Assembly: GCA_964035575.1 (NCBI GenBank)
Contig: OZ037833.1
Coordinates: forward strand, 434,001 to 498,000
Length of the DNA stretch: 64,000 nt
DNA from: Rhynchopus sp. YZ270_cl-10
Lineage: Eukaryota
Direction of reading: 5' to 3'
Shown: in pieces, positions 1,637 to 38,191 of the stretch
How positions within the stretch are numbered: position 1 is the stretch's first letter
Layout: each line of letters opens with the position of its first letter
Position numbers and translations under genes: made by a program
The notes under the pieces: generated by a model
The model's input: only the letters and a program-made list of their open reading frames with translations
What the model was told of the DNA's origin: nothing
Database searches by the model: none

Positions 1637-2749
1637 CACGGTTCGGAAAAGTACTTTTTTAAAAAGTGATATTTTTTGGTCAAAAAAAGTACTTTTTCAC
1701 TTTTCGAAAAAAAAAGTACTTTTTTTTTTTTCGTCAAAATTGTACAGGAAAAAAAAAAGTACTTTTTATTTTTCCGTCAAAAATTGTACGGAGAGAAAAA
1801 ATAAAAAGTACTTTTTTTTTTTCTGTACAAAAAATTTAGAACACTGGAAAAAAAAAAGTACTTTTTATTTTTTCTCTCCGTACAATTTTTGACGGGAAAA
1901 AAAAAAGTACTTTTTTTTTTTTTCCTCCGTACAATTTTTGCACCACGGCGTACGAAAGCGCTTGAAGCGTTTTTTTTTTTTTCGGGGGGAAAAAAAAGCA
2001 CTTTTCGCTTGATGAAAAAAAAAAAAGCGCTTTTTTTTTTTTGTGTGGGGTTTTTGGTAAGGCGTACCTGTTCTCATGATTTTTTGATATTTTGGTTGTT
2101 TTTTTGTGTTGGGGTCAGCCCCGCCGCCAGGATTTTTGAGGTTTGAAAAACTTCTGTTGGATGGTCCCAAAAAAACCCCCCTGCAATCGTAGCCTCCGGC
2201 AGAGAGAAGAATGTTCCCCAAGCACAGTCAGAGTTCCTCCGAATCAACGACATTCGCTCCTTCTCACTTCCCACCGGGCTGTTGTGCAGGAGGCATGTAC
2301 ATTGTACTCTTCCGTGGCCGGTGCAGGTGGCCGTCCACAAGCTGCAGTGGATGTCAGCCTTCTTATCAGCAAACAGCGGTCATGGCACCCAAAGGTTCCT
2401 GGCGAAGCCACGGTACGCAACATTTCTAAAAAATGTTGCCATAAAATGGCACTGCGTTTGTAATTTTTGTCAGAAAAATGCCCACAGCGGGAAATCGGCG
2501 ACTCGATAAATTTGGTTTGGGTCACTTGTAGTGTGGACTTAAACCCCCTTAACAAACCCCTTCAGGAAAAAAAAGCGCTTTTTCCTAAAAATTCAAGCGC
2601 TTTTTTTTTGAAAATTTCTCAAAAAACTCCTCGAAGCGCTTTCGTACGCCGTGTTGCACAGAAAAAAAAAAAGTACTTTTTTTTCTTCAAGTACTTTTTT
2701 TTTTTGGAAAAGTACTTTACTTTTGGGCAAAGTACTTTTCCGATCCGTG
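1637..2749. mobile_element. Non-autonomous TIR element (MITE), 6-bp TSD
   Basis: TIR CACGG(T/A)TCGGAAAAGTACTTT at both ends with 1 mismatch. TSD TCTTCA at 1631-1636 and 2750-2755. Many subterminal AAAAGTACTTTT motifs. Confidence 0.85.
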
Positions 2750-14705: not shown

Positions 14706-14794
14706 AACACACATCTTTTTCAAAAAAAAAAAGAGAAAAAAGTGAAGTTGATAGTGCAAACGCCTCTGGGACGCAGGCACTGACACTCCGCGGG

Positions 14795-17700
14795 TTATCG
14801 AACCCCGGAGTGATGTGCATGGGTGTGGTTTACAGGGAAGCTGTAAGCAGGTATACAGTCATTACCCCACCCTGATCGGGAAGGGGGGACAGCATGATTT
14901 AAAGATTCAAGAAAAGCACGTGTTTTGGCACACAACACTGGGCGTCTGCTGAATCCGATGAGCGCCGGGGCGCCGACGGAACGGAGGGAGTGCACACGAT
15001 CCCTCTTCACACCAGGGAATGGGGCGCGGCGGAGATTCGCTGTTAAAGCTCGCATGTTAGCCTTGACGATGAGCCTTTGCATGACCCGCCCACGTTCACG
15101 GATATTAGAGGTCTGTTTGGCGAGGAAGACCCTTGTGCGCAATTCGAAGTCGACCGCGAGCTCGACACACGACACGTCGCGGGGTTCTTTGCTCCACTCG
15201 AGCGTAATCACCCACCACAGGAAAGTTTTCAAAGTGAACGCCTCCCTATAGCTGGAGGAAAAACTAGGCCGTAGCTTGGTCAGGTAAGTGCGGAAGGGGG
15301 TATCGCGTTTAGAGGCAGCAAATGTGAGATTCCAAGGATGTACAGCCGGGGCCACATCCGTTGGATTTGAGAGGGTCGTGTCGATCGTGGTGACGGCATC
15401 GAGGAGAAGAGACTGTACCGCCTTCACCGCCACCTTGTTCACATTGGAGGGCACAATGCCGTGCAGCACAAAGCAGGTGGGCAGCCCCTTGCCATAGAGG
15501 CTGATGGCCGACGCATGTAAGGCAGTGAACGCCGCTGTGTGGACAATGCTGCAGTGCCACAGTAGGTGGCGTGTGTGGCATGTAACCTGGATGAGGCACA
15601 AGGGGCATTTATCGCTGAAGTCTGCCTCGGGTAAGCCACTGCGCTTGAGCCCTGCTGGATGGCAGAAGAGGACTCCGCCACACAGAACACGTCGCATCCG
15701 GAAAGCCTTGAGGGGGTCGTGGTACTGTAGGGTGTGCCACAGGGCATTGGTGGCGCGGGTGTCAATGCCGTCGCTTATGCCGTCGTACGTAGGGCGTTTA
15801 CTCTGCAGATCATCCCAGACCGCCGTACGCGCCAGAGCTCGCACTTCATGGGCCCTCTTGGCTTTGTCTGTCCCGATGATGGGGATAGTCTTCGCGGTTG
15901 CAGACGTAGACGTCACTGCCCTCATCTCAGGGTCCCAACTCACGTCACATCTGCGGGAGGCGGCGAGGACAGACCCCACTGGACCAACTGCATGCATAGG
16001 TGTACCCCGGGTTGCCAGGGTCTCGTACCTCTCTCTGATGCTCATGCACCTCTGGCGTATGGCGTCATTGCGTTCCACACTGGCGGCGTAAGCTCTGAAC
16101 GTCCTGCATATTGCACTCGAGAGGGGGTGTGCCACGTGCGCCTTCAGGCAGAGTGTGAGCAGTGCATCCACTGAACGAGTAAGGTAGGTGGGGCCCCAGC
16201 AGCACATCGCCACCGCCGTCGATAATTCATTCATCACTGACTGAGGGGGCATGTTGAAGGCGGACTCATATAACACTGAAGGGAGGATGGCAGAAGTGGC
16301 GATAGACACCTTCTGGGAGAAGGAGAGCTGTGTCGCACCCAAACATGAGAGCGCCCTAATGGCTGACTGGTATACCGTAGCGTTGTAGCGCCCCTTGCTC
16401 CGTAGGGAGCTGTACATCATCACGCCAAGTGAGCGAAGCGACTTAGTTGTCTGGAACACATGATTGTCCTCAGACTTCAGCGTGCATTTGTGGTTCTTCA
16501 GCGATGAGAAGGCATAGGTCTTCGCCATGTTGAGGCGCATGCCTGTGAGGCGGCAGAAGTCCTCCACTCGCAACAGACACGCCCCCACCGAAGCTTCGCT
16601 ATGGCGAGACAGAAGGTATGCGTCGTCAGCAAACGACCGTACAAACGCCTCAGGTACCTCCGCCGTGATGCAGTGCGTCAGGACCGACATCAAGGCGTTG
16701 ATGAGCACCACAGAGAGTGGGCACCCCTGCAGGATCCCATTCGTCACGGAGTACGCCTCTCCTACGCCGGAGGGCAGCTTGAACCGCCGTCTCAACGTGG
16801 CGTACATCGCTCGTATAGGTGTCATGATCCTGGGGTGAAGCCCCATCTTTTCAACAAGATCTAAGGTGAGGCCTTGCGGTACGCGATCGAAGCATTTCGC
16901 AAAGTCTAGTGCCAGTCCGTGTAGCGGTTCGCCACCGAGCAGAGCGTCCTCCATCTGTGTGAAGACGTCATACAGGACATCGTTCGTGCTGTGCTTTGGG
17001 CGGAAGCCATGTTGCGACGGGTGTGCCCATTGTTCCTGCCATTGTTGAACTGCCTGCAGGCGTGCGCAGGCCCATAACCGGTATACCGCACTGGTCACAG
17101 TCACAGGACGTAGCTTCAAGGGGGACTGGTCTTCGCCTTTGGGAAGGAGCGTCACCAGGGCGGTCAACAAGGCTTGTGGCCACACACCGTTCGTTTCTAT
17201 CGTGTTGAACACTCGAGCAAAACCTTCCAGTATGCATAGGGGCATCGCATGAAGTTCCAATGAGCGCCAGCCATCAGTTCCGCAGGCGTCCGTGCGCTTA
17301 CCTTTCCTGTCGAGCGTTCTACGCAAGTCAGCACCACTTAGTGGGTCTAGGGACATCGGGGAATTTGCGACGAAGCTGCCGAAACGTTGCTCGAAAGAGG
17401 CGAGAGTTGGCTCGGGATGGTCGTGGTCGTATAGGTTGAACACTGACTTCCACTCATCACGCAGTAGTTTGTCCATCTCCCTGTGATTGGCCGTAAGCAC
17501 ACCGTCCTCTCCCCGAAGGGCGGAAATAGGAACACCCTGTTTCCCCATGCACCACGCTGTGAGTTTCCGTCGCTCGCTGCTAAAATCCACCTTCAGCTTG
17601 GTGGTGTACTGCTTCTCGCGTTGTAGCCGGGTATTGCGTATCTCGAGGTTCATAAGCGCCTTGGACTTGTTCAACAGAGAGTTAAGGATCTGTAGCTGCT

Positions 17701-19237
17701 TTTCGAGCGCGGGTGGGACTGTCGTCTCCTCGGACCTCAGCAACTTGAGCGTGACTGCGGTGCGGAACACTTTACCCCAGGCGTTACGCACAGGATTCTC
17801 CATCACCCCACCAGGACAAGATTCTGTCTTCGCAATGAGGTCCGTGAGCTTATACTCAAATTTGGCAAGTTGGTCCTGTCGGGGGGAAGACCCACCAACA
17901 GACGCCGGTCGCGTAGGTGCACACACCGGTTTCAGCACAGGATGGGGGATCTTGGAGCGGCCGCAGAACCCTTTGGAGAGCGTGTCACCAGCTGCCTTTG
18001 CCGCGAGCAGGAGAAACTCTTCCCCAGCCAGCGCGATCGCTTCCCACGCATCGTCAATGTCACCGGACGCAAGTGTAGCGGCACAGTTGTGTTGTTGTAG
18101 AAGGTTCTTGCCGACTGTCTCAGCATTCGCCACCGTCCCAAGTTCCGGCATCTGTTTGGGGATGGTATACCGAAGTGTCGACTCTGTAAACACAGAGAGG
18201 CAGAGTCGCACGTTGACGGACTTGTGGCTGGGGATGCAGTTGATACGATGTGTCCAACAGCTATGGACGGCATGTGCAGCGACGCTGTTCAGCAAGATGT
18301 AATCGATACGGGTCCCTGCTGAGTCTTTGCGGGTGAACGTGGCAGGGGGCTTGCCGTCATCCCCAGTGCTGCCCAGGAGCGCGACGTCGCACCAGTCCTT
18401 GGCGAGTGCTTTCCGCAATGTTGGTGATCTTTCCACATCAGTGTTGAGGTCGCCGCACACAATCAACGGAACGTTACCCAGGGTTTCTCGAAACTTCACA
18501 AGCACTGTGTGGAGGAGTTCTTCGCGTGCAGCAACTGTAGCTCTTGGCGTGTCACCTGACGGGGCGTACACATTCACCACATGCAGGAACAGACGGCCGG
18601 AACCAAGCGCTACGCGCGTGTGCACCACACGTTTCCTCAGCTCGGGCTTCAGAGAAGACGTCAGTTCGGTGTCCAGGAACATGATGCCCGGTCTCTTCAG
18701 CATGGTGGCCACTCCCCCACGTTCCCCAATGTGTGGACTGCGGAGGCCATGGACGAGTGTGCCATCCATGGGGGGGCCCCATTCTGGAGACCAGACTGTG
18801 GTGAAGAAGTCGTTCATCTCCAAGATCTTGGACTCGGTCAACTTTGTCTCTTGTAGACACACTATATCGCACTTCAGGTCGCGTATGATATGTGCGTAGT
18901 TCTGTAGGGATGTGCAGTTGATGGTGGTTAGCGTGAGGGTGTTCTCAGCAGCGGAGCAGCACGTACGCGAGGAGGAGGATCTATCCGTTGAAGAGGAAGA
19001 AGAAGAAGCAGAGGTAGAAGAAGATGTGTCTGAGAGTGACGGGGGGAAAACGGGGCGAGGAGAAAACGATGCCAAGGATGATGATGATGATGATGATGAT
19101 GAGGAGGAGGAGGAGGAGGTACGGTTTGGGAAGTGGCGGGGACCAGGGCGCGTTTCGATGCACTCGCGAGGAAGCTGCTCGTAGTTGTAGGCGGCGAGTG
19201 ATTCCGGAAAACGCTTCGTGCTGTTGGTGTGGGGGAG
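14795..19237 (-). CDS. ORF2: apurinic-type endonuclease, reverse transcriptase and CCHC finger
   Basis: APE motifs TINC, CLQET, VYAP, GDLN, RIDY, SH. RT motifs LRPVT, QHGFR, LDFAKCFD, GILQGCPLS, FADD. C-terminal CPLC..H....C. The frame is open from 19237 to the stop at 14795. Confidence 0.95.
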   Translation of the reverse strand, partial: LPHTNSTKRFPESLAAYNYEQLPRECIETRPGPRHFPNRTSSSSSSSSSSSSSSLASFSPRPVFPPSLSDTSSSTSASSSSSSTDRSSSSRTCCSAAENTLTLTTINCTSLQNYAHIIRDLKCDIVCLQETKLTESKILEMNDFFTTVWSPEWGPPMDGTLVHGLRSPHIGERGGVATMLKRPGIMFLDTELTSSLKPELRKRVVHTRVALGSGRLFLHVVNVYAPSGDTPRATVAAREELLHTVLVKFRETLGNVPLIVCGDLNTDVERSPTLRKALAKDWCDVALLGSTGDDGKPPATFTRKDSAGTRIDYILLNSVAAHAVHSCWTHRINCIPSHKSVNVRLCLSVFTESTLRYTIPKQMPELGTVANAETVGKNLLQQHNCAATLASGDIDDAWEAIALAGEEFLLLAAKAAGDTLSKGFCGRSKIPHPVLKPVCAPTRPASVGGSSPRQDQLAKFEYKLTDLIAKTESCPGGVMENPVRNAWGKVFRTAVTLKLLRSEETTVPPALEKQLQILNSLLNKSKALMNLEIRNTRLQREKQYTTKLKVDFSSERRKLTAWCMGKQGVPISALRGEDGVLTANHREMDKLLRDEWKSVFNLYDHDHPEPTLASFEQRFGSFVANSPMSLDPLSGADLRRTLDRKGKRTDACGTDGWRSLELHAMPLCILEGFARVFNTIETNGVWPQALLTALVTLLPKGEDQSPLKLRPVTVTSAVYRLWACARLQAVQQWQEQWAHPSQHGFRPKHSTNDVLYDVFTQMEDALLGGEPLHGLALDFAKCFDRVPQGLTLDLVEKMGLHPRIMTPIRAMYATLRRRFKLPSGVGEAYSVTNGILQGCPLSVVLINALMSVLTHCITAEVPEAFVRSFADDAYLLSRHSEASVGACLLRVEDFCRLTGMRLNMAKTYAFSSLKNHKCTLKSEDNHVFQTTKSLRSLGVMMYSSLRSKGRYNATVYQSAIRALSCLGATQLSFSQKVSIATSAILPSVLYESAFNMPPQSVMNELSTAVAMCCWGPTYLTRSVDALLTLCLKAHVAHPLSSAICRTFRAYAASVERNDAIRQRCMSIRERYETLATRGTPMHAVGPVGSVLAASRRCDVSWDPEMRAVTSTSATAKTIPIIGTDKAKRAHEVRALARTAVWDDLQSKRPTYDGISDGIDTRATNALWHTLQYHDPLKAFRMRRVLCGGVLFCHPAGLKRSGLPEADFSDKCPLCLIQVTCHTRHLLWHCSIVHTAAFTALHASAISLYGKGLPTCFVLHGIVPSNVNKVAVKAVQSLLLDAVTTIDTTLSNPTDVAPAVHPWNLTFAASKRDTPFRTYLTKLRPSFSSSYREAFTLKTFLWWVITLEWSKEPRDVSCVELAVDFELRTRVFLAKQTSNIRERGRVMQRLIVKANMRALTANLRRAPFPGVKRDRVHSLRSVGAPALIGFSRRPVLCAKTRAFLESLNHAVPPSRSGWGNDCIPAYSFPVNHTHAHHSGVR

Positions 19238-19750
19238 TCAGTCGCGCTTAGGTGACGAGGCCGCCCCGGTGAATTGAGGGCGGGAGTAGTCGTGGGATTT
19301 ACCGTCCTGCGCATTCGGGATGTGGATGGCTCCCTTGAACTGCCTCATCTTGCGTGTGGGCCGGTCCTCCGGGACCGTCTCGCGAATGAGCAGGGGTTCG
19401 TGATAGTCCCCTCGCGCTATCTTCGTGAACTGGGGTCGTTCCTGTGCGCACACGATGATCACATGCTGGCGTTTCTTTTTGTATGAGGAGACACACTTGC
19501 AGTCGAATCCCGAAGCCTGGAGGGTTTTGACGATGTCCTCCCTCAGCTCGTACTGGCGCGCTCCGAGGACGGTGTACTTCATCGCCCGAGGGTCCATCAA
19601 CGGCGTCACATTGTTCACCCCAATGTCGTTGACCGCCTCCGCTGTCGCGTAGTTGTTGGTGAGGCGGATGCCGAGGCCCCCCCCGCTGCCGATCACCAGT
19701 CCCAAGGTGGTTTCCTCATGGGAGTTGCAGAACTCCCACGCGTGGTCCAT
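19238..19750 (-). CDS. ORF1 of the retrotransposon (170 aa, unknown function)
   Basis: ATG-started, GC-rich ORF directly upstream of ORF2 and in the same frame. Confidence 0.7.
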   Translation of the reverse strand: MDHAWEFCNSHEETTLGLVIGSGGGLGIRLTNNYATAEAVNDIGVNNVTPLMDPRAMKYTVLGARQYELREDIVKTLQASGFDCKCVSSYKKKRQHVIIVCAQERPQFTKIARGDYHEPLLIRETVPEDRPTRKMRQFKGAIHIPNAQDGKSHDYSRPQFTGAASSPKRD

Positions 19751-19988
19751 TGTGAAAAAAAAAATTCAAAAACAGAAAGTCTCCAATAAGACTTGATGGT
19801 AAAATATATGACTTCTTACTTTTTTGGCCTAAGGACCAAACAACGATGAAATCATCCACATAACATTTCTAATAATTCTATGTTGTTTTGCATCGACACC
19901 CCATTATAGGGAAACGTCATTTTTTTTTGCAAATCTAATATATTCCCCACCCCTTTTTCTAGTTTTAAAATATTTTTGTTTTTTTGTG

Positions 19989-22900
19989 TCACTCCCATGT
20001 TTCATTGTGGATATGAAATCTGAGTCTTCGGCGAAGGAGGTTAAGCTTATCGACACTCTTCCGCACCGCGATTTGCATCGATTTTGGCCCACAAACGACA
20101 ACTGCTGCAGCACGAATCTGCCCGTTTAGCCCAGGAATATCAGGATTTCCAAGCTCATTCTGGACACTGAGGGTTTCGAAAACGTCTGGGTGCTTCGATG
20201 CTGACCCGCCCCCTTGAAAGAGGTTCGGCCTCCCTTGGTACAGGATCTGCACTCGTTGACACCCTAGGGTGTTTGCCTTTGCGTCTGCAATGGACTGCAT
20301 ATGGTCTACATCGCATTGTCCTGGCACCTCTGTCTGTGGAGGCTGCATTTCAACCTCAGCGTTTGTAAGATTCCCTAACAGATTCCCCCCGGTCTCGTGA
20401 AGGTACGCTCTGAAGACGAAGTTCAAATTTGAGGTAGGTTTTTCGTTGTCAACGTCCAACGCCATTCGGATCGTTCCGGTAGGTTGTTGTCCACAGAAGA
20501 GATCGAATAAACGCCGATCCTTCGCCGCCCATACTAAAGTAATCACCTTAGTTCTGCTCACCCCAACCGGAAGTTGCTGTCCCCATCTCGGGTCCAAATA
20601 GTACTCCAACATAGACATCAATGGAGCGGCGCCTAGCCCTCCCGCAATCAATACAACGTGTTCATATCTCCGTACATCAACGCAGGGTGATCCGTACGGT
20701 CCCATAACCCGAATTTTCCCTAATTGGCGAGATTCAGAGTGTTGGTGAACCTTTTGCGACCAGGTTCTCATATGAGGATGTGATGCGATGTGGAAGGTGA
20801 ATGCTGTAGTGGGTTCTCCTCGGAGCGGTTCCATTTGGTCGTCGGCGATGTGGACGGGGCGGCTGGACATGGCAACACTGTGCCAAGAGTAGTCGATGGC
20901 AGGGAAGGAGATGAGAACGTACTGCAACGGAGAGAGCCGGTCGATCCCGAACTCATCGTGGAAAACCGAGTAGTTGGAGACAGCGATCTTCACTTCCACA
21001 GAGCAGACCTGCATATCACCAAAGGTGCCTTCCTGGTATGAGGCAACAGCACTCCGTGTTGACCCATCTTGAAAGCATGATGGCGGCGCGCACCCCATCC
21101 CACCATGCGCAATGCCCCAATGGTAAAGCCAGTACATCACCTCAATAAAAACAAGGACCAAGGTAAAGACTGTGCCATAAATGAGTTTCCAATAGTGAAC
21201 ATGTGCCCAGGTGAATGCCCAGAGAGCACAGAAGAGTTCGAGACGGCGGAAGGCGGTGGGTTTGAACCATTTCTGTTGTAGGGTGAAGATTATTTCATAT
21301 ATCAAATCTACTGAATAGAAGGTATACCATGGTGCACTATAAAGGGTGAAGATGAAAAGGAAAAAAAGCATTTTAGTTTGGTATCTGAACAAGGGGTGGG
21401 AATGACACAAAGGCATACCCTCCTACGTTGGTCTGACATCGCATTGAGCAGGACCACACCAAGCACTCCGAAGAGAGAGAAGAAGCCGGGCAGACCTGCG
21501 TGCCGCCCTGTGGTGCCGTCATCCCAGGACAGTGCATCCGAGGAGTAGTGTGCGATCTGTGTGGTATTGTGAATAGGGTATTTCGGATACTTTACATAAA
21601 TCCGATAGAGAGAGACAATGTGTTGGCTATGTGGGAATGGGAGTGGAGGGAGCGGAAGGAGTTTATTTGATAAAAATTGCAGAATTTAGTTTTCAGGCAT
21701 GTCACCAAAAAGGCGAAGGAGGGTGTGAAGTGTGGGTAATGTACATACCATCCCAATGCCGTGCACCAGCAGCAGCACCAGAAGCAGCCTGCAGTTGAAG
21801 TTATGCCACCTCCGCGCGCGGCGCTTCGTCAACGCGAACATCCACAGTACAGGGGATGAGTTTGTCAGCGGGATGAGGAAGAGAGAAAAGCACAACAGCG
21901 CCCCTGCACCAAAGGCACGTACTTCTGGAGCAGAAAGACGGTCCTGTGTGGAGACGGGTTGTGCGTTGTGTAAAGAGAATAAAAAAACAAAAAAAAACAT
22001 ACCCGAGAGTACTCCTTAGCGTACAACCCTACCCACATCGACACCAACACTATGTACGACAGCACCAAAAACGCCTGAAACGTTGTCAAATGGAACTCCT
22101 CCATGCCCTGTCAGGTGGTATTTTTATTTTTTGAAAATCTTTCTATTGCCATACCTGAAACAACACCGAAACGCGCCACAAAAAGTTTTTCGGTGAATAC
22201 CGTGTAACATAGTACCCCGAGCATGCCATGAGCGTGAGATAGAGCACCGTGAAGTCGATCCACCAATATGGCATGCTTTCTTTGACACAGCTGCTGTCGA
22301 CGGTGCCATCTTCGAAGTGGATGCAGACAGTGCCTTGGGTGGTGTGCATTGCTTGGTCTGCAGGGCCGTAGGCGTAACTCACGTAGTAACTGTTGAGGGA
22401 CGCATTCGCAAGCGAAACATCGGCTACCGCATCGGTTGTCAACAACGGCCGTTTGAACTTCACGGTGTACTTATCGCGCACCCCGGTTTCCTCGAAGGAA
22501 ATGAAGGTAAGCCCTGGAGTGCCCCCTTGCTGAGAGTCAGGCAGCACCGCGCCGTTGTGTTCAACGTCGCCTGCCCAGCAGTCCTGGAGCATTGAATCAT
22601 CTGGGTCGATTGTGATGTCGCGGTCCACCTTCCATACGTCAGTGTTCCGCATGCCCGGTTCAAGGGAAATGCCCACCGCTCCTTGCATCTCTGCCTTCAG
22701 CATGATCGTCACCCAAATCTCCTTCGGGGTGCTTGCAGTATTGACTACCCAACAGAGACGGAATTCGTCTACAACAAAGTCATGACAAAACTTCATTTCC
22801 GGCGACTGTCCTCCTGCGGCAAAGGGCACCGGAGTGGACCCCACCGAGCTTGAGGTGGAGGCGCGGTACGCAACCTGGGTGGATCCTCTGTCGGTGCACT

Positions 22901-25900
22901 GTTGGATTTCTTGCGTCTCAGGGTCGATCCCTCCGTAGCCCCACAGAAGCACCTGGCTTGCCACCAACGGATCAATCGCAAGATCGTCGTACGCAAAGGG
23001 GCTGATCGGGGGGTCCAAAACCACCATCGGGTTGTTTGAAATCCTCGCTAAAACGCTGTAGTCCCCTTGCATGCCTGCTAGCTGGCTTGTGGAGGTAAGG
23101 TTCCCAACCGCGTAGTTAGCATCCACAGGCACCGATACATCCCAGAACAGCGTGCTGTAGAGGGTGTCAGAGGCGCGGGTAAAGGTCTTCGCTTGGGTAA
23201 AAATCGCGTTGTTTGCAACAGGGTCTGCGTTTCTAGTGGGGACAAACTTTTCCTTCAGTGCTAAAGTGTCAACAAGACCGAAGTTGAAGTACGCGATTTT
23301 GACTCCTTCAGCCCATCCGTTCAGTTTTGGTACTGTAGTAGCATCTTGCGGTTCGAGGGAAGAGAGCGGATCGACCACCCAGAGGTTAACTAATTGTTCT
23401 GTGTCGTATGTCTTCCAAGATTCGCGTTGCACGACTTCAAGAACGTCGGAGACTGTGGTGATGCCGCCGAAAGCTTTTGAAACGGGGTCGGTCCCATCGC
23501 CCAGCCAGTTTCGTGGCACCTCCACGATGACCAGCTTGTGTACATCCGAATATACATTTGAGGCGGCCGTATCCTCAAAGGGAACGTTCAATGAGAATGA
23601 CACCGCCACGTCTGACAGCGTTTTGATTGAATCATCGTTTGCCCCCGACGGCAAATTTTCGAACACCGGCGCCAGCGCTGCAACCGCCTCGCCAAACCTA
23701 TACAACGTAGCCCCCGTTTTTGCGTCCTCATTTTGAAGCCCCTCCGCCTCACGCACAGTCACCGCAGTCGGGTGACGGAACACAAACACTCTATCCGCTA
23801 AGGCATGCGTCATATTCCCTGGAACCGCATTGGGGGAAGAATAATACCACAACGGACGGTCCGCATAATAGCCTTTCTCCCTTGATAGAGTGACGAGAGG
23901 CGCTGAACGCGAGGTATGTGACACTGTAGGGCACGTATAGTGCACAACCGGCTGATGGCAGGTACCATTCCAAAAGCAATGCTCCCTCGGGCAGGTCACC
24001 TCGGAGAGCTTCTCGGCACACTCCTTCATGGTGCTGTCCACCGCTGTGATAGGATGCTCATTTGTCCCCTCTGCCAGCCGGATCACCTCAAGGCATGTTC
24101 CTCCTATGGCACGGCTCATGACATAAGAGATTTTGTTTTGTGCGTTAACGACTTTGTACAGTATAGTAGGGTTCGCGAATGCGGTGGAAAATTCGGGGTC
24201 AGAATTTTCAAAATATCCGAAATTGATTCCGGTCAATTCTTGGTTGTTATGGTAAAATGATACGGTCGGGAAGAGGTAACGGTGGGCACGCTCTGCAAGG
24301 ACTGAAGCGGGGTGGATCGCCGGGGTCAAACGGGAGAGAGATGAGGCTACGACAGTCCACGTCTTTTGCAGGGTTTCGGAAAGCAACGCGGATTCCGATT
24401 TTATGGGAAATGCAGTCGCAGCGTAGTCTCCATTCTGAGGGATCTCCACAACAGAAATAGAGTGGAGGTCTGAGTACCCTGCTTGCCCTGCGGAGCGAGA
24501 AACTATCTCATAATTTTGTGCCTCAGCCGCAGTAAAGACAGTTTCATTGAAGCGTAGTGCATAGCTGCTCATTGACGAAATCGGTTGATTGCCTACTGCA
24601 GATTCCAAACTAAATGGAAGCGGGGTGTTCATCAAGGCATAGAAGAACACCCTCAGACCTGGTCTTCCACTGACGTAGGCACTCCGTTTTTCGTAGACCT
24701 TTTTCTCATCCACTTCATTGCTTTGCGTGCTCGCGGAAGGAGCAGATAAAATCGGAAACGCATGAATCGAAGCAGGATTGATCGGATATGTGCTCTGTGA
24801 TAGCAGGTCTGTCGTTGGGTCGAATGTATCTGGTGAATCTGGGGCCGCCCACAGAGTGTGAAATACTGAGTATAGAGGCGATTCGGGTAGGTATGGGAGG
24901 AGGATTTTGCCGGATTTTACACGATATGCACGGAGAACAGTACGAACGGATTGTTCGGCAAGCTGCATGAAGTAAATTTCGTAGCTTTTGTGATACCCTA
25001 CACTCAATGTGACCCCCGACGGCGGCTGTGTCGTTGCAGAGCAGACCGGCCAATGATAATAAATTCCCCCTCTTTTCCGCGCAGGCCACCTCTTTCGCGA
25101 GATATCCAACACCGAGGTAACCTGCTCTGCAGTCTCCCCGGACGGAATCAACACCTCCTGCAGTTCTACCAAATCCGAATACCCCACGACACTTCCATTC
25201 ACGATCCGTTCATTTGCCGGAATCGCCTCGAACACTGGCAACAAATCCAACACCCTTTCATTTTGCAAAAAAATGTACACCCGGTTGACTGGGATCTCAT
25301 AGGTAGATTCATACGGAACGACATTTGTACGTTGCGACGCCTCGGTAGGCAGCGTCAAAGGGTAGCGAAACGAGGCATTCACGACCGGCCAAAAATTGAG
25401 GATCTTCCCCCGGTAGTACCCCACTCTCGGCAGGGCGAGGTTGTACTCCGGGAGCTCCTTCGCCTCCAACATGCTTTGCTCCACCTTTTCATCAATGTCT
25501 AATACAGGATAATTCAACGCCCACGGCATTTCTACCACAGTCATCCCCAACACTGCTGCCTCCGACCGATACAAATCCCCCCCTGGAGCAACCGCAGCCG
25601 GTGCATACACATAGGGACGTACCAGCCCTGTTGTCCCCCCAAATGGCAGCGTATTGAAGACACGCCCATTTTGGGTTGCCACCTCCGTCTCATACACCCT
25701 CCCCGGAACTAAGTCTGCGAGAAGCGGAAGTTGTTGGGTACCCCGCATTAAAACCTCCCACCCTTCGTTGTATGTTTCAAATGGTGAGGAGTAAGTCCGT
25801 GCATTAATTGCACCCCATCTCGGAACCTCACCTTGAGAAACAAAGAGACACTCAATAGTGGTGTCGTTCCAATACCATGAGAGGCGTGGGATTGCGAAGG

Positions 25901-28900
25901 GAGTGCCGTCCTTGGTGACGGTGGTTGCGCTGTGGGAAACCGCGCAGGTTATTAAAATGCTGGTGGAGGTGCGAACCCAGGAGGATGGAATGGAATCGAT
26001 CGAGGTAATAGGGAGCGGGGTGCTGTGGACATCGGGTACGGTCACCAAGGTGGCCTTCCAGATATGCGAATACCCGGTCTGTCCTGGAACAACAGAGGCA
26101 ATGTTTGCCTGCGTCTCTGGCGCCCAATATGCAGCAGCGCCAGCATCGGAGGGGCGACGAAGACAGAATACCTCTGCAGTGACGATACTCTTTTCGTCCA
26201 CAATCGGCATGCGTCCGGTCACACCATTGTTCATCGGAGTGTCATCCACCTGATAATACCCTGGATCCGATAAGTCTATGTAATAATTCTGCACACCATT
26301 GTACCACCCCTTTTGCAACGCAATGTCCATGGCCTTCAATGCTATTGCCTCCCCGGGGTCGATGGACATAATTTTTATGTTGACAATCTCAAGCGGGTTT
26401 TTCCTTTGCAATGAAGTGGTCACAGCGAGAAGGTCTGTTGCGCTGTTAATCCCATCCCTCGCCCCCTTCGGAACCACCGCGGAGTATACTATCTTAATAG
26501 GAGAGTACTGCACGGAGGATGGAATGTCTCCGAGAATGTATTTCTGTACGGCAGGAGCCAGCACCACGCTCTCATCCTCTTCGTATATTTCGTACATCTT
26601 GTCGATGGTGTTGTGCGTAAGATTGGAGAAGAAAGCGCAGTTCACCACCTGGCCTTGGTACCATAGCTGTCTCAGTTCTATTTTACTGTCATTCTGTTCG
26701 AATTGAGCCAACGCAGATACAACAGGGCAATCCCAGTAATAGTCTGTTTCTTCTACATAGGCATCTACAGCACGAAGCTCTGCCAAGGAGGTGATGTCAT
26801 CCGTCAACTGATCCGGCAGTCTCACACGACGGACCTTCATGACGTCAGAGTAGTCTGACAGACCTGGGACCGAATCGATGATGGACAGCCTTCCTACGGG
26901 GTGCCATAGCTCGTAGACGTACATAGTGTTTAGTAAGCCAGAATTTTCTGTTGTTTCGGTCAACGTATTCTTGACAATGTAGTGCGACACCTTCGAATTC
27001 AAAAAGAACGAATCGGTCTGTGTGTACGTCGCAGGCTTATCAAGAGGGAGCGGCAGACCTACGGAGGGTGGGCTGTTTGGGATGGACGCATTCCCGGTGG
27101 TCAGTTTCCAGTAGATGTCGGTGGAGCCGCGCATCGCAATGCCGTTAGAATGGATGTGCGTAATGTCGATTGTGCCTGCACCGCATTCACCTGTCGTCCT
27201 GCTGTCGCCTGCTGCGTAGAGTACCCTAGCTGCAGTGAAAGGGTCCTCCGGAATGTAGCCTTCGGGGTCATGTGCTGACCCAGTATATCCCCTAGTAAAT
27301 GAAAGAACAATTTTTCTCCCAGTAACCTCGATTTTTTGATCAGCAAGCGTCATGGTTGCGCGGGAGGTATCCGGAGGGCCTGAAATTTGGTCGGAATAAG
27401 CGGATCTGATACACGAAGCGCCATGCCGATCCGACATTCCGACCACCAAATCAGCGTTGGTCATTTGCGTTGACCCGACGTCTGAAAAGCCAATTCCGAC
27501 ATAACCCGGTTCGTACCTCGCGTCGAACAAAGCCTCCATCTGCACCTGCACCACACCAACCTCATTGGAAACAGTCCACCGCAAGAATATTTCCGCCATA
27601 GGAAAGACATTTGTTGACCCCTCTGCCGGGTACACCTTCATCTCTCTTGTGTATCCATGGGATGCTTCCACGGGAGCTGGGGTTTCTTCTTCAGCTAAGG
27701 CAAGAATGTTAAGAATAAACCGGTTCACGTATGTAACGCTGCTTAAGGTAGGGTCGAAGGAAGCTGAATCCGAGACGTTCGCTGGTAGCAGCGAGGTGGA
27801 GTTGATAACAGTAGTGTTTCCGTCGGGGAGTTGCCAGGTCTGCATCAGGAAGATCCCGGTGTTGGTCTGCATGGTGCTGTTCAGCTCTGCGGAGGATATG
27901 TTTACTAAGGCCGCAACCGGGGCGGTGCCTTCACTGTGAAGCTGCTCCCACATCAAATTGATTGACGAAACGGAATAGGTGTTTGGCACTTCTTCCGCAG
28001 TTTCCCAGGATTGCATGGGGGATTCGACGAATGCACCCATTTTTACCCCAAAATCGATGCAATAAGTTGGGGTCGTGCTGTCGCGGAACCACATAATCAT
28101 TTTGCTCACCTTCACCCCATATGAGTTTCGAACAGACGATCCAGAGCTGAGTGTCGGGCAATTCAGCCAAATCTGTGTCCTCCCTCTCCGCCAATCCTGA
28201 GGAATTGCGTGCGCCCAGCTTACGATACCTGCCGTATAATTTGATGGAACCACCGCATAAAATACCTGCTTTATATCAGAATAACCTTGAATTCCTGGCA
28301 ACGCTGTGGTTAATGGATACTGCCCGGGAATGCGATTATTTGAGACACGCGACGTAGTTGATTGAAGAAACGCACGCACCGCGTCATGACGTTGATCCCC
28401 TAATAACGCAGCCTCATCCTCCTCATCGATCAGAAGGTATACCGGCAGCGCCTTTGGCACTCCATCAGAACCAAATACACCGCCATTTGTCTCGATTTCG
28501 ACGTACGCGAAGTTCTTCGTGTCTTCCGTATAGCCTATCGTCTCTGCAATCAAAACTTCTCGCCCCAAGAAGAGTGGGGTAGGGGCGAGAGAAGATGTGT
28601 GAAAGTCGTTTGTCGTCAGAGGGCGAGAAAAGTTGATGACAGTGGACAACGACGTCACCTCAGTCCCAAGAAGTGTCAAATCCTGCTGGAAGTCCATGAC
28701 CGGTCTAGCCAACCCCGCGCTCTTCCTATCCTCAACCCGAACACTCCCTCCCCGATCAATCCAAACAGTCGCAATATCCGCAAACGAAAACCCTTCCCCA
28801 ACCCCAATCCCTACCCAAACATTTTCTGCACTGATGTTCCCAGAGTATTTTATGCTGAACCGAATTTCGCGAGAATTTTGCATTTCCCATGACACCGAAA

Positions 28901-30461
28901 GACGGGTATTGATCAGCTTCTCTCCATGCATATCTGCGAAGGGAATCACCGGGGCTGCAGTCACCGCAGTCAAAAACGGAGAAGGGGTAAGAATAGGGGG
29001 TTCTACTAGAGGTGCGTCGCTTTGCGCTGGGGTGTCGGAATCGGTCCAGAGGGACTGCACAGAACGCCACTGAGTTTGGTATAGACTGTTGAAGAGCGAG
29101 ACCCAGCTTTCATTGCATCGAGGAACCAAAGGGCCTCGTTGGACTGACCAGGTGAGAACCCCGTACTGTCCTAATGTAATGTCAGAGTCGGGGCGGTGCT
29201 TTCCTGTAGAGTCAAAGGCGGAGGCATCGAAATCGCGTTCAAACATAACGTACATCTCTCCACTGCGCAGAACGTTCATCTGCACATTGCGAACCCCCAT
29301 CAAATTGTCTGATGATAGTACCGGATCGGGAATGCCAGAAGAATACGAAGAGTCTGCAGGAACATAGCCAAATTGGGTGCACACTTCATCCCCTTCTTGA
29401 GGAACATAGAATAGCGCGGTTTCGGAGCCGACAGATTGAAGCTCTGCCACACTACGCGCTGCAGAGAACCCAAGACCCAACCACCCGGCACCAAATCTGG
29501 TAGAAAACAAAAACGTTACCGTCGAAGTGTCTGCGTCTGCAGTGTATTGCAGAGTCGTTAAATTCGAAAGAGCTACGGTATGTTGAAACGTTGTCTCCCA
29601 AAACGGTGCGCCCACCGAAGAAACATGCCAGGTTACGACCGGAGCAATGTCAGGATCATCACCAAATTGCGTAGGAATCTGCGACAATCCCGCAAATGAG
29701 GTGACCGAATTCAATATGTAGGTCGCCGCGACGTTCACGTTGCGCTTCACAAAATAGGGGATGAAACTGTGCACACCTGGCGGAACTTCGAGAAGTGCAT
29801 TCCCCTCCACCCTTTGCGGCGTAGGAAGCCTTTGCAGCACCCACGCTATGAGACTCCCATTGCTCGTTTTCACGCCATGATCACGACCTGGGTAATGCAA
29901 CACATCGTTATGAAGCACCATACAATAATGTGCCGCTCCTTCTACTATATAACGCCTTAAAACTGCGGTTTCGAATTGAAGGGTAGCGGTGGTTGCGACA
30001 GAGGGGCAATGCAGAAAGGTGCCTTGGGGAATGAGGTTCCATCCGTTTTGTTGTACTGCGGAGGTGACGTCGGAGGCAGATTGGAGGGAAAGCTGTTGAA
30101 ATATTCCGGCATCGGTTGCGGGGATGGCCACCACAATGATACGCCAGATTCCTGTGTATTTGATTGCGGTGGAGGAGCGGGTTTCAGTGTCCCCTAAGAT
30201 CGCGGTGTCGGCTATGTACGGCGAATCTGCAATGGGGGATAATATGCCTGCATCGTTGACAAAAGAGAAGTGGTACATCGTTGCCGGTGGGTCCGAGGAG
30301 GTCACTAACTCTGCCCCAGAGAATTCATAGTATTCGAGCCGTCTGCCGGACACCCATCCCTGTTGTTGTGTGATGCGCCCGGTGGGGACGGCAGCCTCAG
30401 CACGCCAGGCCTCCTGCACAGCCAGGAGCAACATAAGGCATCGTAGATACCGAAGAAGCAT
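19989..30461 (-). CDS. Giant (~3,342 aa) signal-peptide protein: 4 DOMON domains, repeated YSD modules, ferric-reductase transmembrane region and FAD/NADPH domains; exons 30461-22155, 22107-22003, 21943-21749, 21556-21419, 21272-19989
   Basis: Four phase-0 GTATG...CAG introns join the ORFs in frame. DOMON motifs GWLGLGFS, WVGIGV, YVGIGFS..MTNAD, GMRNTD. Heme His pair in RRWH...LVH. GPYG, LIAGGLG, CGP and HNETW motifs. Confidence 0.85.
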
Positions 30462-36500: not shown

Positions 36501-38191
36501 TTTTGTAAAGGGGTGGGGGAGGAGGGGGTGATTCTGTTCTGTAGTGGCGGTTGTGGAGTTGGTGAGGTGGGGGGGTAAAACATAAAACAAAAACGGAGGC
36601 AGTCTTGGGTAGTATTTTCTTGTTTGTTGAAAACTTGGTATTAGTGTAGACACCCGAGGATGAACTCCACTGTGCTTGTTTGTTTTTTTTGTGTGCATTA
36701 TTTGCAAACCACAGAGAGGGAACAGGGTGGTGATGGTGTGACCAGGGTCACGTCAACATGACCTTCCTCCACTTTGTCTTGTTATTTTTCCTTTTTTGCT
36801 TTTTTTTTTTGTGTGTTTTTGTGTTGGTTTGCTTTGTTTTTTTGCATCGACGATCATCCGATGGGTTTTGTATGGGGTTATGTACACCCAAATCTACCCT
36901 GACAAGCGTTGAGATACTTACAGACAGAATTTTTGATTTTTTTTTTTATACCCAGTTGCCCGGAAAGTTAGGAAAGAGAGTTTTTTTTTATTATACCCAC
37001 AAGCGTAGCTTAGAGGAGAAATAGTTCCTTCCGATACGGTCGCCAATCTCCCCTCAAACAGGGTAATTGAGCCATCAAACGAAAGGCGCCTTTTTTCTTA
37101 CTTACAAGTATACCTATCAGAGTTACTATTTTTTGGGTTGCTTTTTTGTATTTTTTTATAACTGCGACAGAAAATGTGTGTCGCTGTTTTGTTTTGAAAA
37201 ACTTGGTTGTTTTTATATCAGTGGACACACATCGCACTCCACTAATTTATTTTGTAAAATTTTGTAAAATCAAACAACCACCCGAAAAAATAAGTTCTGA
37301 AGGGAGACAAATGACAAAGGCACACTTCATGAGAGAGTGGAACATGTGAGACTTTATTTATTTTTTTGGAAACAATGTTTTTGAGACCATTTCTTTTGGG
37401 TCTGGTTGGTTTAGCTGCCATTCAAGACTTTCTTTACTATTTGTAAAAGGTTTCGATGACTGCCTTCATAGAGGCCCCCAAAAAATAAAATAAAAAAGGA
37501 ATTCTTGACGCAATGGCACCTCTGACGTACCCACTGTACGATGCCAGCCATCCGGGATGAAAGAAGAAGAGAAAAAAAGAGAAGTTGACAATGCAAACGT
37601 CTCTGGGACGCAGGCACGAAAAAATAAAAAGATCGAGTCTTTGTCTGCGCTAAAAGCCGGGCGAAAATAGACAATTGCAACAGGCACGGTCATTTCCCAA
37701 AAAAAAAAGCGTTACGCATAAACGAGAACACTGTACATCGAACGAACCCCATGTTAGGTGTGCCAAAAAAAAAAAAAAAATCTTTTTCGCAAGACAAATT
37801 TGTGAACAAAAGACACAAAAGAGAAAAGAGAAAAGTTGGGGTACAATTTTATGCAACCCCAAAAATTGCAATAAAAAAATCATCCTTTTTTATCAACGCC
37901 AATATGGGCCATATATTTGTTGCTAACAAATAGCTCAAATTCTTTCATTTGTTTGGTCATATAAACAGACCACTTCACAGCTTCAGGCATATTCTTATTT
38001 GTTGCTGATGTGCACACAGACTAAACACTTTACATAAAATAACTTGGACTCCTCCTCCTCCTCTAGGCCTATTTTTTGTATTTTTTCTTGCACACACATT
38101 GGGGACCATATTCTCCATGAGAACCACCCCCCTTATCAACACACAAAACACCATCCCGCCTCTCTCCTCCTCCTCCTCCTCCTCCTTTTCA

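What the first reader, a model, noticed from the sequence alone, without database searches (positions are those of the whole stretch)
14795..19750. LINE with ORF1 and ORF2 in one frame, separated by a single TGA-C, and no usable ORF2 start
Seen: ORF1 ends GAC TGA CTC (19240-19238) and the same frame stays open to 14795. The first in-frame ATG lies inside the endonuclease, after the TINC and QET motifs, so it cannot give an intact enzyme. A poly-Ser linker follows the stop. Known: UGA-C is a leaky context, and read-through produces Gag-Pol in gammaretroviruses. Inference: programmed read-through yields a ~1,650-aa fusion, which is unusual for a non-LTR element.
Basis: partly seen in the sequence, partly recalled or inferred. 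Interest (0 to 1): 0.8.

Follow-up and report, generated by a model that had tools for sequence, protein, structure and literature searches.

The report
LINE joining leaky stop and 2A
A jumping gene (LINE) in what is likely a euglenozoan protist has its two genes in one reading frame, parted by a stop codon that its copies share and followed by a ribosome-skip-like peptide instead of a start codon, so its copying enzyme is likely made when ribosomes occasionally read through that stop, which has not been measured.

Summary
The layout is real and is not a private mutation. All 6 of 6 ORF1 proteins in the cluster end at this stop, and multi-copy contigs in 4 of 4 runs carry it unchanged.

This copy is 5'-truncated: full ORF1 has 543 aa, so a fusion would be 2,024 aa, not 1,650.

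A more abundant sister subfamily with different upstream DNA also has an in-frame TGA, followed by CGG, the textbook type II readthrough signal. Three distant families show in-frame TGA junctions too; three other loci do not.

Best reading (0.6, inferred): low-level readthrough makes ORF2. Main rival (0.27): L1-like AUG-independent reinitiation. No stimulatory hairpin was found and no expression data were available.

Readthrough was already proposed in print for Paramecium LINEs, and this scan noted the in-frame-stop layout in 7 earlier findings on other genomes. The pairing with a 2A-like peptide is the new part.

The parts
14715..19755 (-). 5'-truncated copy of an APE-RT LINE (non-LTR retrotransposon)
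   Evidence: Multi-copy contigs end at 19755 while single-copy flank contigs run on; Pfam domains. The 3' limit is approximate (T-rich tail).
19241..19750 (-). C-terminal 170 aa (residues 374-543) of ORF1; its ATG is an internal Met of the full 543-aa protein
   Evidence: The model of full ORF1 matches RRM proteins weakly (best E 5.5e-4, TM-score 0.15 by query).
19238..19240 (-). ORF1 stop TGA, followed by CTC, in frame with ORF2
   Evidence: 6 of 6 ORF1 cluster members end here. No difference in the contigs of 4 of 4 runs.
19139..19216 (-). 2A-like peptide, ORF2-frame residues 8-33, ending CIETRPGP (Arg where active 2As have Asn)
   Evidence: 18 of 26 residues identical to P0002, which ends NIETNPGP; P0003 has GDIETNPGP.
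18968..19117 (-). Ser-rich linker; as RNA it is a pyrimidine-rich tract with downstream AG dinucleotides
   Evidence: Sequence.
18203..18943 (-). APE-type endonuclease, residues about 99-345; its first 42 residues lie upstream of the first ATG
   Evidence: Pfam Exo_endo_phos E 1.3e-14; the QET motif aligns weakly with AP endonucleases in the PDB (best E 0.0016).
18815..18817 (-). First in-frame ATG (Met141), inside the endonuclease
16421..17122 (-). Reverse transcriptase domain (FADD motif)
   Evidence: Pfam RVT_1 E 8.3e-22; nearest solved protein is human L1 ORF2p, E 3e-18.
15551..15607 (-). Cys/His (CCHC-like) motif in the C-terminal part of ORF2
   Evidence: Sequence; the Cys and His residues are kept in 5 of 5 rows of alignment A1.
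14795..14797 (-). ORF2 stop TAA
14715..14830 (-). 3' end: two hairpins and a T-rich tail, shared with a very high-copy short repeat
   Evidence: z -4.03, 0 of 200 shuffles fold as well; summed contig depth 157,000-564,000 in 3 of 4 runs; partial copy at 37560-37617.

Best explanation
This is a 5'-truncated copy of a young LINE family whose ORF1 and ORF2 lie in one frame, parted by one shared UGA, and ORF2 is likely made by occasional readthrough of that stop. Most ribosomes would stop and release ORF1p (543 aa). A few would read on through a 2A-like peptide 8-33 codons downstream. With an intact NPGP motif, as in the nearest relative, the skip would likely free an ORF2p that starts at Pro and needs no AUG (about 1,448 aa). 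In this subfamily Arg replaces the Asn, so the product is more likely a 2,024-aa ORF1-ORF2 fusion, with partial skipping possible. Shown: the frame, the shared stop, the missing AUG, protein-level conservation upstream of the first AUG, and TGA-CGG in a sister subfamily. Inferred: readthrough itself, its rate, and any skipping.
For: (1) The stop is fixed in the family. 6 of 6 ORF1 cluster members (170-680 aa, six contigs) end at the same residue. Contigs over the stop show 0 differences in 4 of 4 runs, at about 5.5 and 3.7 times the flank depth in X2 and X4. None of the 15 listed of 37 ORF2 cluster members is fused to ORF1. (2) The pre-AUG region is conserved as protein. Against P0002, residues 8-33 are 18/26 and residues 99-140 are 29/42 identical, versus 203/320 in the RT region. 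Both listed variants in residues 8-33 are synonymous. (3) A contig at about 3.3-3.7 times the depth of this subfamily (X2 record 8, X3 record 16) aligns without gaps over 19128-19217 and then diverges. Its 16-nt loose end reads TGA CGG in the ORF2 frame, 3 codons before Lys-Arg rather than 7. UGACGG is a type II readthrough hexamer (PMC13517186, passages). Such hexamers make up 1 of 120 stop triplets in the element and 44 of 4,048 in the window. (4) Among distant relatives, 4 of 8 loci that reach upstream of the endonuclease (3 families) have one in-frame TGA closing an open frame: TGA-CTG, TGA-CAA and TGA-TG(C/T). The last family has no Met and a canonical 2A before the endonuclease. (5) 16 of 30 relatives with sequence upstream of the endonuclease carry an [N/H/R]PGP motif there.
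Against: No expression, ribosome or peptide data. UGA-CUC in this subfamily is not a type II hexamer, and 2 of 15 host genes in the window also end in TGA-C. No downstream structure beats shuffles (z -0.68 to +1.62 for windows starting at or after the stop; -1.42 to +0.8 in four relatives), although UGACGG viruses need one. The TGA-CGG evidence is one short contig end listed in 2 of 4 runs, both of one study. Only 5 nt upstream of that stop were seen, so an ORF1 ending there is not shown. TGA is the commonest stop triplet in these sequences (56-84%). Four TGA-C among 5 junctions has p 0.003-0.027, or 0.014-0.076 if the two sister subfamilies count once, and this was counted after the fact. 3 of the 8 loci (L001, L012, L046) lack the layout and 1 (L045) is uninformative. 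L005 and L009 have a Met before the endonuclease, and the ORF1 profile hits none of the loci. Human L1 ORF2 is reported to be translated AUG-independently without a fusion (review passage).
Confidence: 0.6

Rival explanations
1. AUG-independent termination-reinitiation, as reported for human L1. Ribosomes terminate at the ORF1 stop and restart a few codons downstream, for example at the in-frame ACG at codon 7 (19219). The 2A-like peptide is then the usual N-terminal element of ORF2p and no fusion is made.
For: Conservation with P0002 begins right after codon 7. P0002, P0154, P0003, P0033, P0043 and P0083 were called with a Met just before or inside their 2A-like peptide. 2As sit near the ORF2 N-terminus in many LINEs (PMC3708506). 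L1 ORF2 translation is described as AUG-independent (PMC11485995). No readthrough stimulator was found.
Against: The sister subfamily has GAG where this one has ACG, and it keeps TGA-C in frame at a different spacing; reinitiation does not require that. Reinitiation after long ORFs is mostly AUG-dependent and usually out of frame (PMC10275272, passages).
Confidence: 0.27
2. A separate ORF2 mRNA is made by spliced-leader trans-splicing at the pyrimidine-rich Ser linker (or from an internal promoter) and is translated from a near-cognate codon just before the endonuclease.
For: The linker is a pyrimidine tract followed by AG, and near-cognate ACG codons lie at residues 84, 92 and 102. The host looks euglenozoan: 14 of 14 ORFs of 300 aa or more lie on one strand, and the named relatives are from Diplonema. 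In Tca2 a junction promoter mimicked readthrough in reporters (PMC2194720, abstract).
Against: It leaves unexplained the conserved, synonymous-only peptide upstream of the tract and the TGA-C kept in frame.
Confidence: 0.06
3. The stop is a nonsense mutation or assembly error in a single-ORF element that spread passively, or UGA is a sense codon in this host.
For: ORF1-ORF2 fusion models exist for Diplonema relatives (P0054 and others).
Against: The stop is shared by all copies seen, and a second subfamily has its own in-frame TGA. ORF2 stays open for 1,480 codons. Host genes end at TGA (6 of 15; one right after its last Pfam domain). The Diplonema fusions jump from inside the ORF1 zinc finger straight to the first endonuclease strand, at the residue where P0141 ends, so they look like spliced gene models (inferred).
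Confidence: 0.04

Closest known systems
Paramecium tetraurelia non-LTR Group 3 (Guerin et al. 2017, PMC5405496; passages seen; Table S3 not read)
   Same: [quoted passage not shown]
   Different: Ciliate clade; no 2A-like peptide in the passages seen; a proposal only, no test in those passages.
2A-bearing APE LINEs: trypanosome L1Tc/Ingi and Rex1, L2, CR1, Crack elements (PMC3708506, parts 1-2 of 6; PMC3894237, parts 1-2 of 3)
   Same: 2A-like peptide just before the APE domain; a few such elements keep an ORF1.
   Different: Most lack ORF1, and the 2A lies 40-80 aa from the ORF2 N-terminus. Here ORF1 is present, there is no AUG, the peptide follows an in-frame stop, the Asn is Arg, and Pfam finds no RNase H.
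Type II viral readthrough (VEEV and CTFV UGA-CGG; Sindbis UGA-CUA; PMC13517186, passages)
   Same: In-frame UGA-C ahead of the polymerase; the sister subfamily has the exact UGACGG hexamer.
   Different: This subfamily has UGA-CUC; no downstream stem-loop scores above shuffles; not a virus.
Human LINE-1 (ORF2 by unconventional reinitiation; PMC5972666 and PMC11485995, passages; the primary paper was not held)
   Same: Two-ORF APE-RT LINE; L1 ORF2p is the nearest solved protein; ORF2 translation is AUG-independent.
   Different: L1 has a 63-nt spacer and an ORF2 AUG; here the first codon after the stop is already in the ORF2 frame and there is no AUG.
Diplonema papillatum LINE-like ORFs (named hits; PMC10161547, passages)
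   Same: Nearest named relatives (43-59% identity in the RT region); the window groups with them in a quick RT tree (40-row group, SH-aLRT 94); ORF1 is homologous.
   Different: The genome paper leaves the elements unclassified; their junction DNA could not be read here.

Membership tests
APE-type non-LTR retrotransposon (LINE) | N-terminal APE endonuclease plus RT in ORF2 | tested here: met
   Pfam E 1.3e-14 and 8.3e-22; L1 ORF2p is the nearest PDB protein.
APE-type non-LTR retrotransposon (LINE) | Dispersed copies with variable 5' truncation | tested here: met
   37-member ORF2 cluster; several of the 15 listed members start with unrelated flank.
APE-type non-LTR retrotransposon (LINE) | ORF1 nucleic-acid-binding protein | tested here: inconclusive
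   24 homologues; model pLDDT 74 with weak RRM matches; no convincing Pfam family.
APE-type non-LTR retrotransposon (LINE) | 3' poly(A) or simple-repeat tail and target-site duplication | tested here: inconclusive
   The tail is T-rich, not poly(A); both ends abut T runs, so no duplication can be delimited.
Ingi clade (L1Tc, Tbingi) | No ORF1 (single ORF) | tested here: not met
   543-aa ORF1 present; feature from PMC3894237.
Ingi clade (L1Tc, Tbingi) | RNase H domain | tested here: not met
   No RNase H among Pfam hits at E<=0.01; feature from PMC12278014.
Ingi clade (L1Tc, Tbingi) | 77-nt 5' signature | not testable with these tools
   This copy lacks its 5' end and no genome is held.
Type II stop-codon readthrough | UGACGG or UGACUA hexamer | tested here: inconclusive
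   Not met in the window (UGACUC); met in the sister subfamily's contig end.
Type II stop-codon readthrough | Downstream stimulatory stem-loop | tested here: not met
   No window starting at or after the stop reaches z below -0.7.
Type II stop-codon readthrough | Measured readthrough product | not testable with these tools
   No reporter, ribosome profiling or proteomics available.
2A/StopGo peptide | (D/G/C/N)(V/I)ExNPGP core | tested here: not met
   The window has CIETRPGP. No substitution at the Asn reached the activity threshold in two model 2As (bioRxiv 10.64898/2026.09.24.754024, passages). P0002 and P0003 meet the core.
2A/StopGo peptide | Class B Trp about 16 residues before the last Pro | tested here: not met
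   That position is Asn, flanked by Tyr; feature from PMC12338488.
2A/StopGo peptide | Ribosome skipping activity | not testable with these tools
   Needs a reporter assay.

The most novel reading that the evidence does not exclude
A LINE lineage uses two recoding steps in series: programmed UGA readthrough sets how much ORF2 is made, and a 2A skip about 30 codons later frees an AUG-less ORF2p from ORF1p. The RPGP variant skips on its own host's ribosomes, widening the 2A motif.
Probability: 0.25. Interest if true: 0.8.

Novelty: new variant of a known kind. Interest (0 to 1): 0.55.

Why it matters
How LINEs translate ORF2 from a two-ORF RNA is an open question (PMC3708506, PMC3894237). Readthrough has been proposed for one ciliate group, but I found no measurement in any LINE in the searches run. 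This family offers a short, testable junction with two natural stop contexts (UGA-CUC and UGA-CGG) and natural 2A variants (RPGP, NPGP). If both steps hold, it gives 2A peptides in two-ORF LINEs a clear job, which is freeing ORF2p after readthrough. It would also mean gene callers cut these ORF2s at an internal Met or bridge the stop with false introns.

Tried and rejected
Sequencing error or private nonsense codon: rejected. Contigs drop rare variants, so a rare sense-codon copy is not excluded.

UGA as a sense codon in the host: rejected.

Stimulatory hairpin: none above shuffles. A stem at about +24 to +86 recurs in the predicted folds, but at chance level. Rfam gave 1 match at E 0.12, below its gathering score.

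Out-of-frame UGAUG coupling in L002/L014: that frame closes after 19 codons.

Diplonema ORF1-ORF2 fusions as natural sense-codon relatives: set aside as probable gene-model artefacts.

P0142, an ORF1 fragment ending Met-Leu, could be the sister subfamily's ORF1, but it is a single record and could not be linked.

Empty searches: the 170-aa ORF1 fragment among proteins of 93-298 aa, the first metagenome scan, viral contigs, and Atlas hits for ORF1, all under 0.9. The Atlas search for ORF2 did not complete. No RNA holder listed.

No whole genome is held, so copies could be read only through protein clusters and short contigs. The careful RT tree did not finish; the quick tree (73 of 110 rows after removing near-duplicates) had no reference clades, so no clade name is given.

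Full report
Observation. On the - strand an ORF runs from ATG 19750 to GAC TGA CTC at 19243-19235, and the same frame stays open for 1,480 codons to TAA 14797-14795. Pfam finds an endonuclease (residues 111-321) and a reverse transcriptase (706-939). The first in-frame Met is residue 141, after the TINC and QET motifs, and there is no AUG in any frame before it. Starting there would drop the first strand and the QET glutamate, which by recalled knowledge of APE nucleases binds the metal; QET aligns weakly with solved AP endonucleases.

What the element is. It is a 5'-truncated LINE copy. The 170-aa ORF1 is residues 374-543 of a 543-aa protein found in longer forms on other contigs. Multi-copy contigs end at 19755 while flank contigs run on. 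The RT region has 106 relatives at E<=1e-20 among 4,563 candidates, and nearly all those with a species name are from Diplonema papillatum. A quick RT tree puts the window with P0002 and P0154 inside a 40-row group that holds the Diplonema elements (SH-aLRT 94). All 14 ORFs of 300 aa or more in the window lie on one strand, which fits a euglenozoan host (inference). ORF1 has 24 homologues and a model with weak RRM-like matches. It is not an Ingi element: it has an ORF1 and Pfam finds no RNase H.

The stop is a family feature. All 6 of 6 ORF1 cluster members end at the same residue. Contigs across the stop show no difference in 4 of 4 runs from two studies, at several times the flank depth in the two runs where both were listed. 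None of the 15 listed of 37 ORF2 cluster members is fused to ORF1; the other 22 were not shown. Host genes use all three stops (6 TGA, 5 TAG, 4 TAA of 15), so the code is standard.

The region before the first AUG is conserved as protein. Against P0002 (51% identical overall), residues 8-33 are 18/26 and 99-140 are 29/42 identical, compared with 203/320 for the RT region; 17% of 26-residue windows in residues 99-1480 reach 18 identities. Both listed variants in residues 8-33 are synonymous. ORF2 translation must therefore begin at or before about codon 8, by readthrough or by a non-AUG restart.

The missed feature. Residues 8-33 end in CIETRPGP. P0002 has NIETNPGP and P0003 has GDIETNPGP, and 16 of 30 relatives with upstream sequence carry an [N/H/R]PGP motif before the endonuclease; one of them, P0108, also has RPGP. 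This is the position of 2A-like peptides in L1Tc, Ingi and many other LINEs (PMC3708506, parts 1-2 of 6). A recent preprint gives the core as (D/G/C/N)(V/I)ExNPGP and found no Asn substitution that reached its activity threshold (10.64898/2026.09.24.754024, passages; supplements closed). The window's peptide therefore fails the motif and the nearest relative's passes. It also lacks the class B Trp (PMC12338488, passages). Eukaryotic 2A-like peptides may mainly lower protein output rather than skip (PMC13405545, passages).

Evidence that favours readthrough. A more abundant sister subfamily appears as a 111-nt contig (depth 1,784 in X2, 2,167 in X3) that aligns without gaps over 19128-19217 and then diverges. 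Its loose end, read by hand in the ORF2 frame, gives TTG TGA CGG AGC GAG before the conserved Lys-Arg. So a second in-frame TGA-C sits at a different spacing in different sequence, and UGACGG is a type II readthrough hexamer (PMC13517186, passages). Such hexamers are 1 of 120 stop triplets in the element and 44 of 4,048 in the window. Its depth in X2 is about 18 times the flank, matching the 18 contigs of P0001 and P0004-P0007; that link is inferred. Among 49 related loci, 8 reach upstream of the endonuclease. L002 and L014 (one family), L005 and L009 have one in-frame TGA closing an open frame. L001, L012 and L046 do not, and L045 has no stop within its contig. L002/L014 repeat the window's layout closely: TGA, about 30 codons without Met, a canonical 2A, then the endonuclease; their stop is followed by T, not C.

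Evidence against. No expression data. UGA-CUC is not a type II hexamer, and TGA-C ends 2 of 15 host genes. No downstream structure beats shuffles. The TGA-CGG end was listed in 2 of 4 runs, both of one study, and shows only 5 nt upstream of the stop. TGA is the commonest stop triplet in these sequences, and the TGA-C tally gives p of 0.003-0.076 after the fact. The distant loci fall in a sister group of the tree and their upstream frames do not match the ORF1 profile. Several relatives were called with a Met just before or inside the 2A-like peptide, which suits initiation there. Human L1 is described as making ORF2p AUG-independently (PMC11485995, one passage; PMC5972666, passages), although reinitiation after long ORFs usually needs an AUG and is usually out of frame (PMC10275272, passages). 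Tca2 warns that junction reporters can mislead (PMC2194720, abstract).

Mechanism. Most likely (0.6) ribosomes translating ORF1 usually stop at UGA and a small share read through. With an intact 2A the skip would release a 576-aa extended ORF1p and a 1,448-aa ORF2p starting at Pro. With RPGP a 2,024-aa fusion is the likelier product (lengths). Rivals: AUG-independent reinitiation (0.27), trans-splicing in the pyrimidine-rich linker (0.06), and a spread nonsense codon or altered code (0.04).

Novelty. Read-through was suggested for Paramecium Group 3 LINEs from consensus sequences (PMC5405496, passages; supplements not read). This scan holds 7 earlier notes of the same layout in other genomes, none matching this sequence or genome and none returned with all the words readthrough, 2A, StopGo and LINE. 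These are unchecked notes and not support. Paper searches (listings seen) returned no measured readthrough in a LINE and no readthrough-plus-2A junction. Most subscription journals are not searched, and unseen supplements of the 2A surveys may list such elements. The Diplonema genome paper (PMC10161547, passages) and a trypanosomatid mobilome survey (PMC12278014, passages) do not describe this family in the passages seen.

Verdict. A real, family-level feature and a new variant of a known kind: interest 0.55. The boldest reading, readthrough and a 2A skip in series, has probability about 0.25 and would deserve 0.8.

Noticed in passing
window 14722-14812 and 37560-37617: The LINE's 3' end folds into two hairpins (z -4.0) and has summed contig depth over a thousand times the flank in 3 of 4 runs. 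It is probably shared with a very high-copy SINE-like repeat; a partial copy lies at 37560-37617.
   Followed up: partly
window 19756-19770 and 14715-14745; P0008, P0009, P0013, P0167: The element ends in a T-rich rather than poly(A) tail, and its 5' break follows a T run. Other truncated copies begin with Phe/Leu-rich flank, suggesting insertion behind pyrimidine tracts in the host's sense direction.
   Followed up: no
window 19157-20100, run X1 versus X2: In X1 the ORF1 end lies on a flank-spanning contig at single-copy depth, while in X2 it is about 5.5 times the flank. Copy number may differ between samples.
   Followed up: no
P0154/P0155/P0165 with P0168: A second LINE family on contigs of the same lengths has a zinc-finger ORF1 and an ORF2 beginning with DIHPHPGP. 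Some copies have a Met 5 residues before the motif's Leu-Leu and others were called from inside the endonuclease.
   Followed up: partly
P0054, P0175, P0183, P0184 (Diplonema records): Annotated ORF1-ORF2 fusions jump from inside the ORF1 zinc finger to the first endonuclease strand; they are probably gene models that splice out a stop.
   Followed up: partly
L045-L049: Five contigs in prokaryotic genome bins encode relatives of this eukaryotic LINE, probably bin contamination.
   Followed up: no
window 38987-64000: Tandem duplications of B-box, BspA-type LRR with ubiquitin-like, and CRAL-TRIO genes.
   Followed up: no
window 19989-30461: A 2,772-aa DOMON-domain ORF and a ferric-reductase-like NAD-binding ORF lie just upstream of the insertion.
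   Followed up: no
window 1707-1975: A self-complementary stretch of about 200 bp.
   Followed up: no
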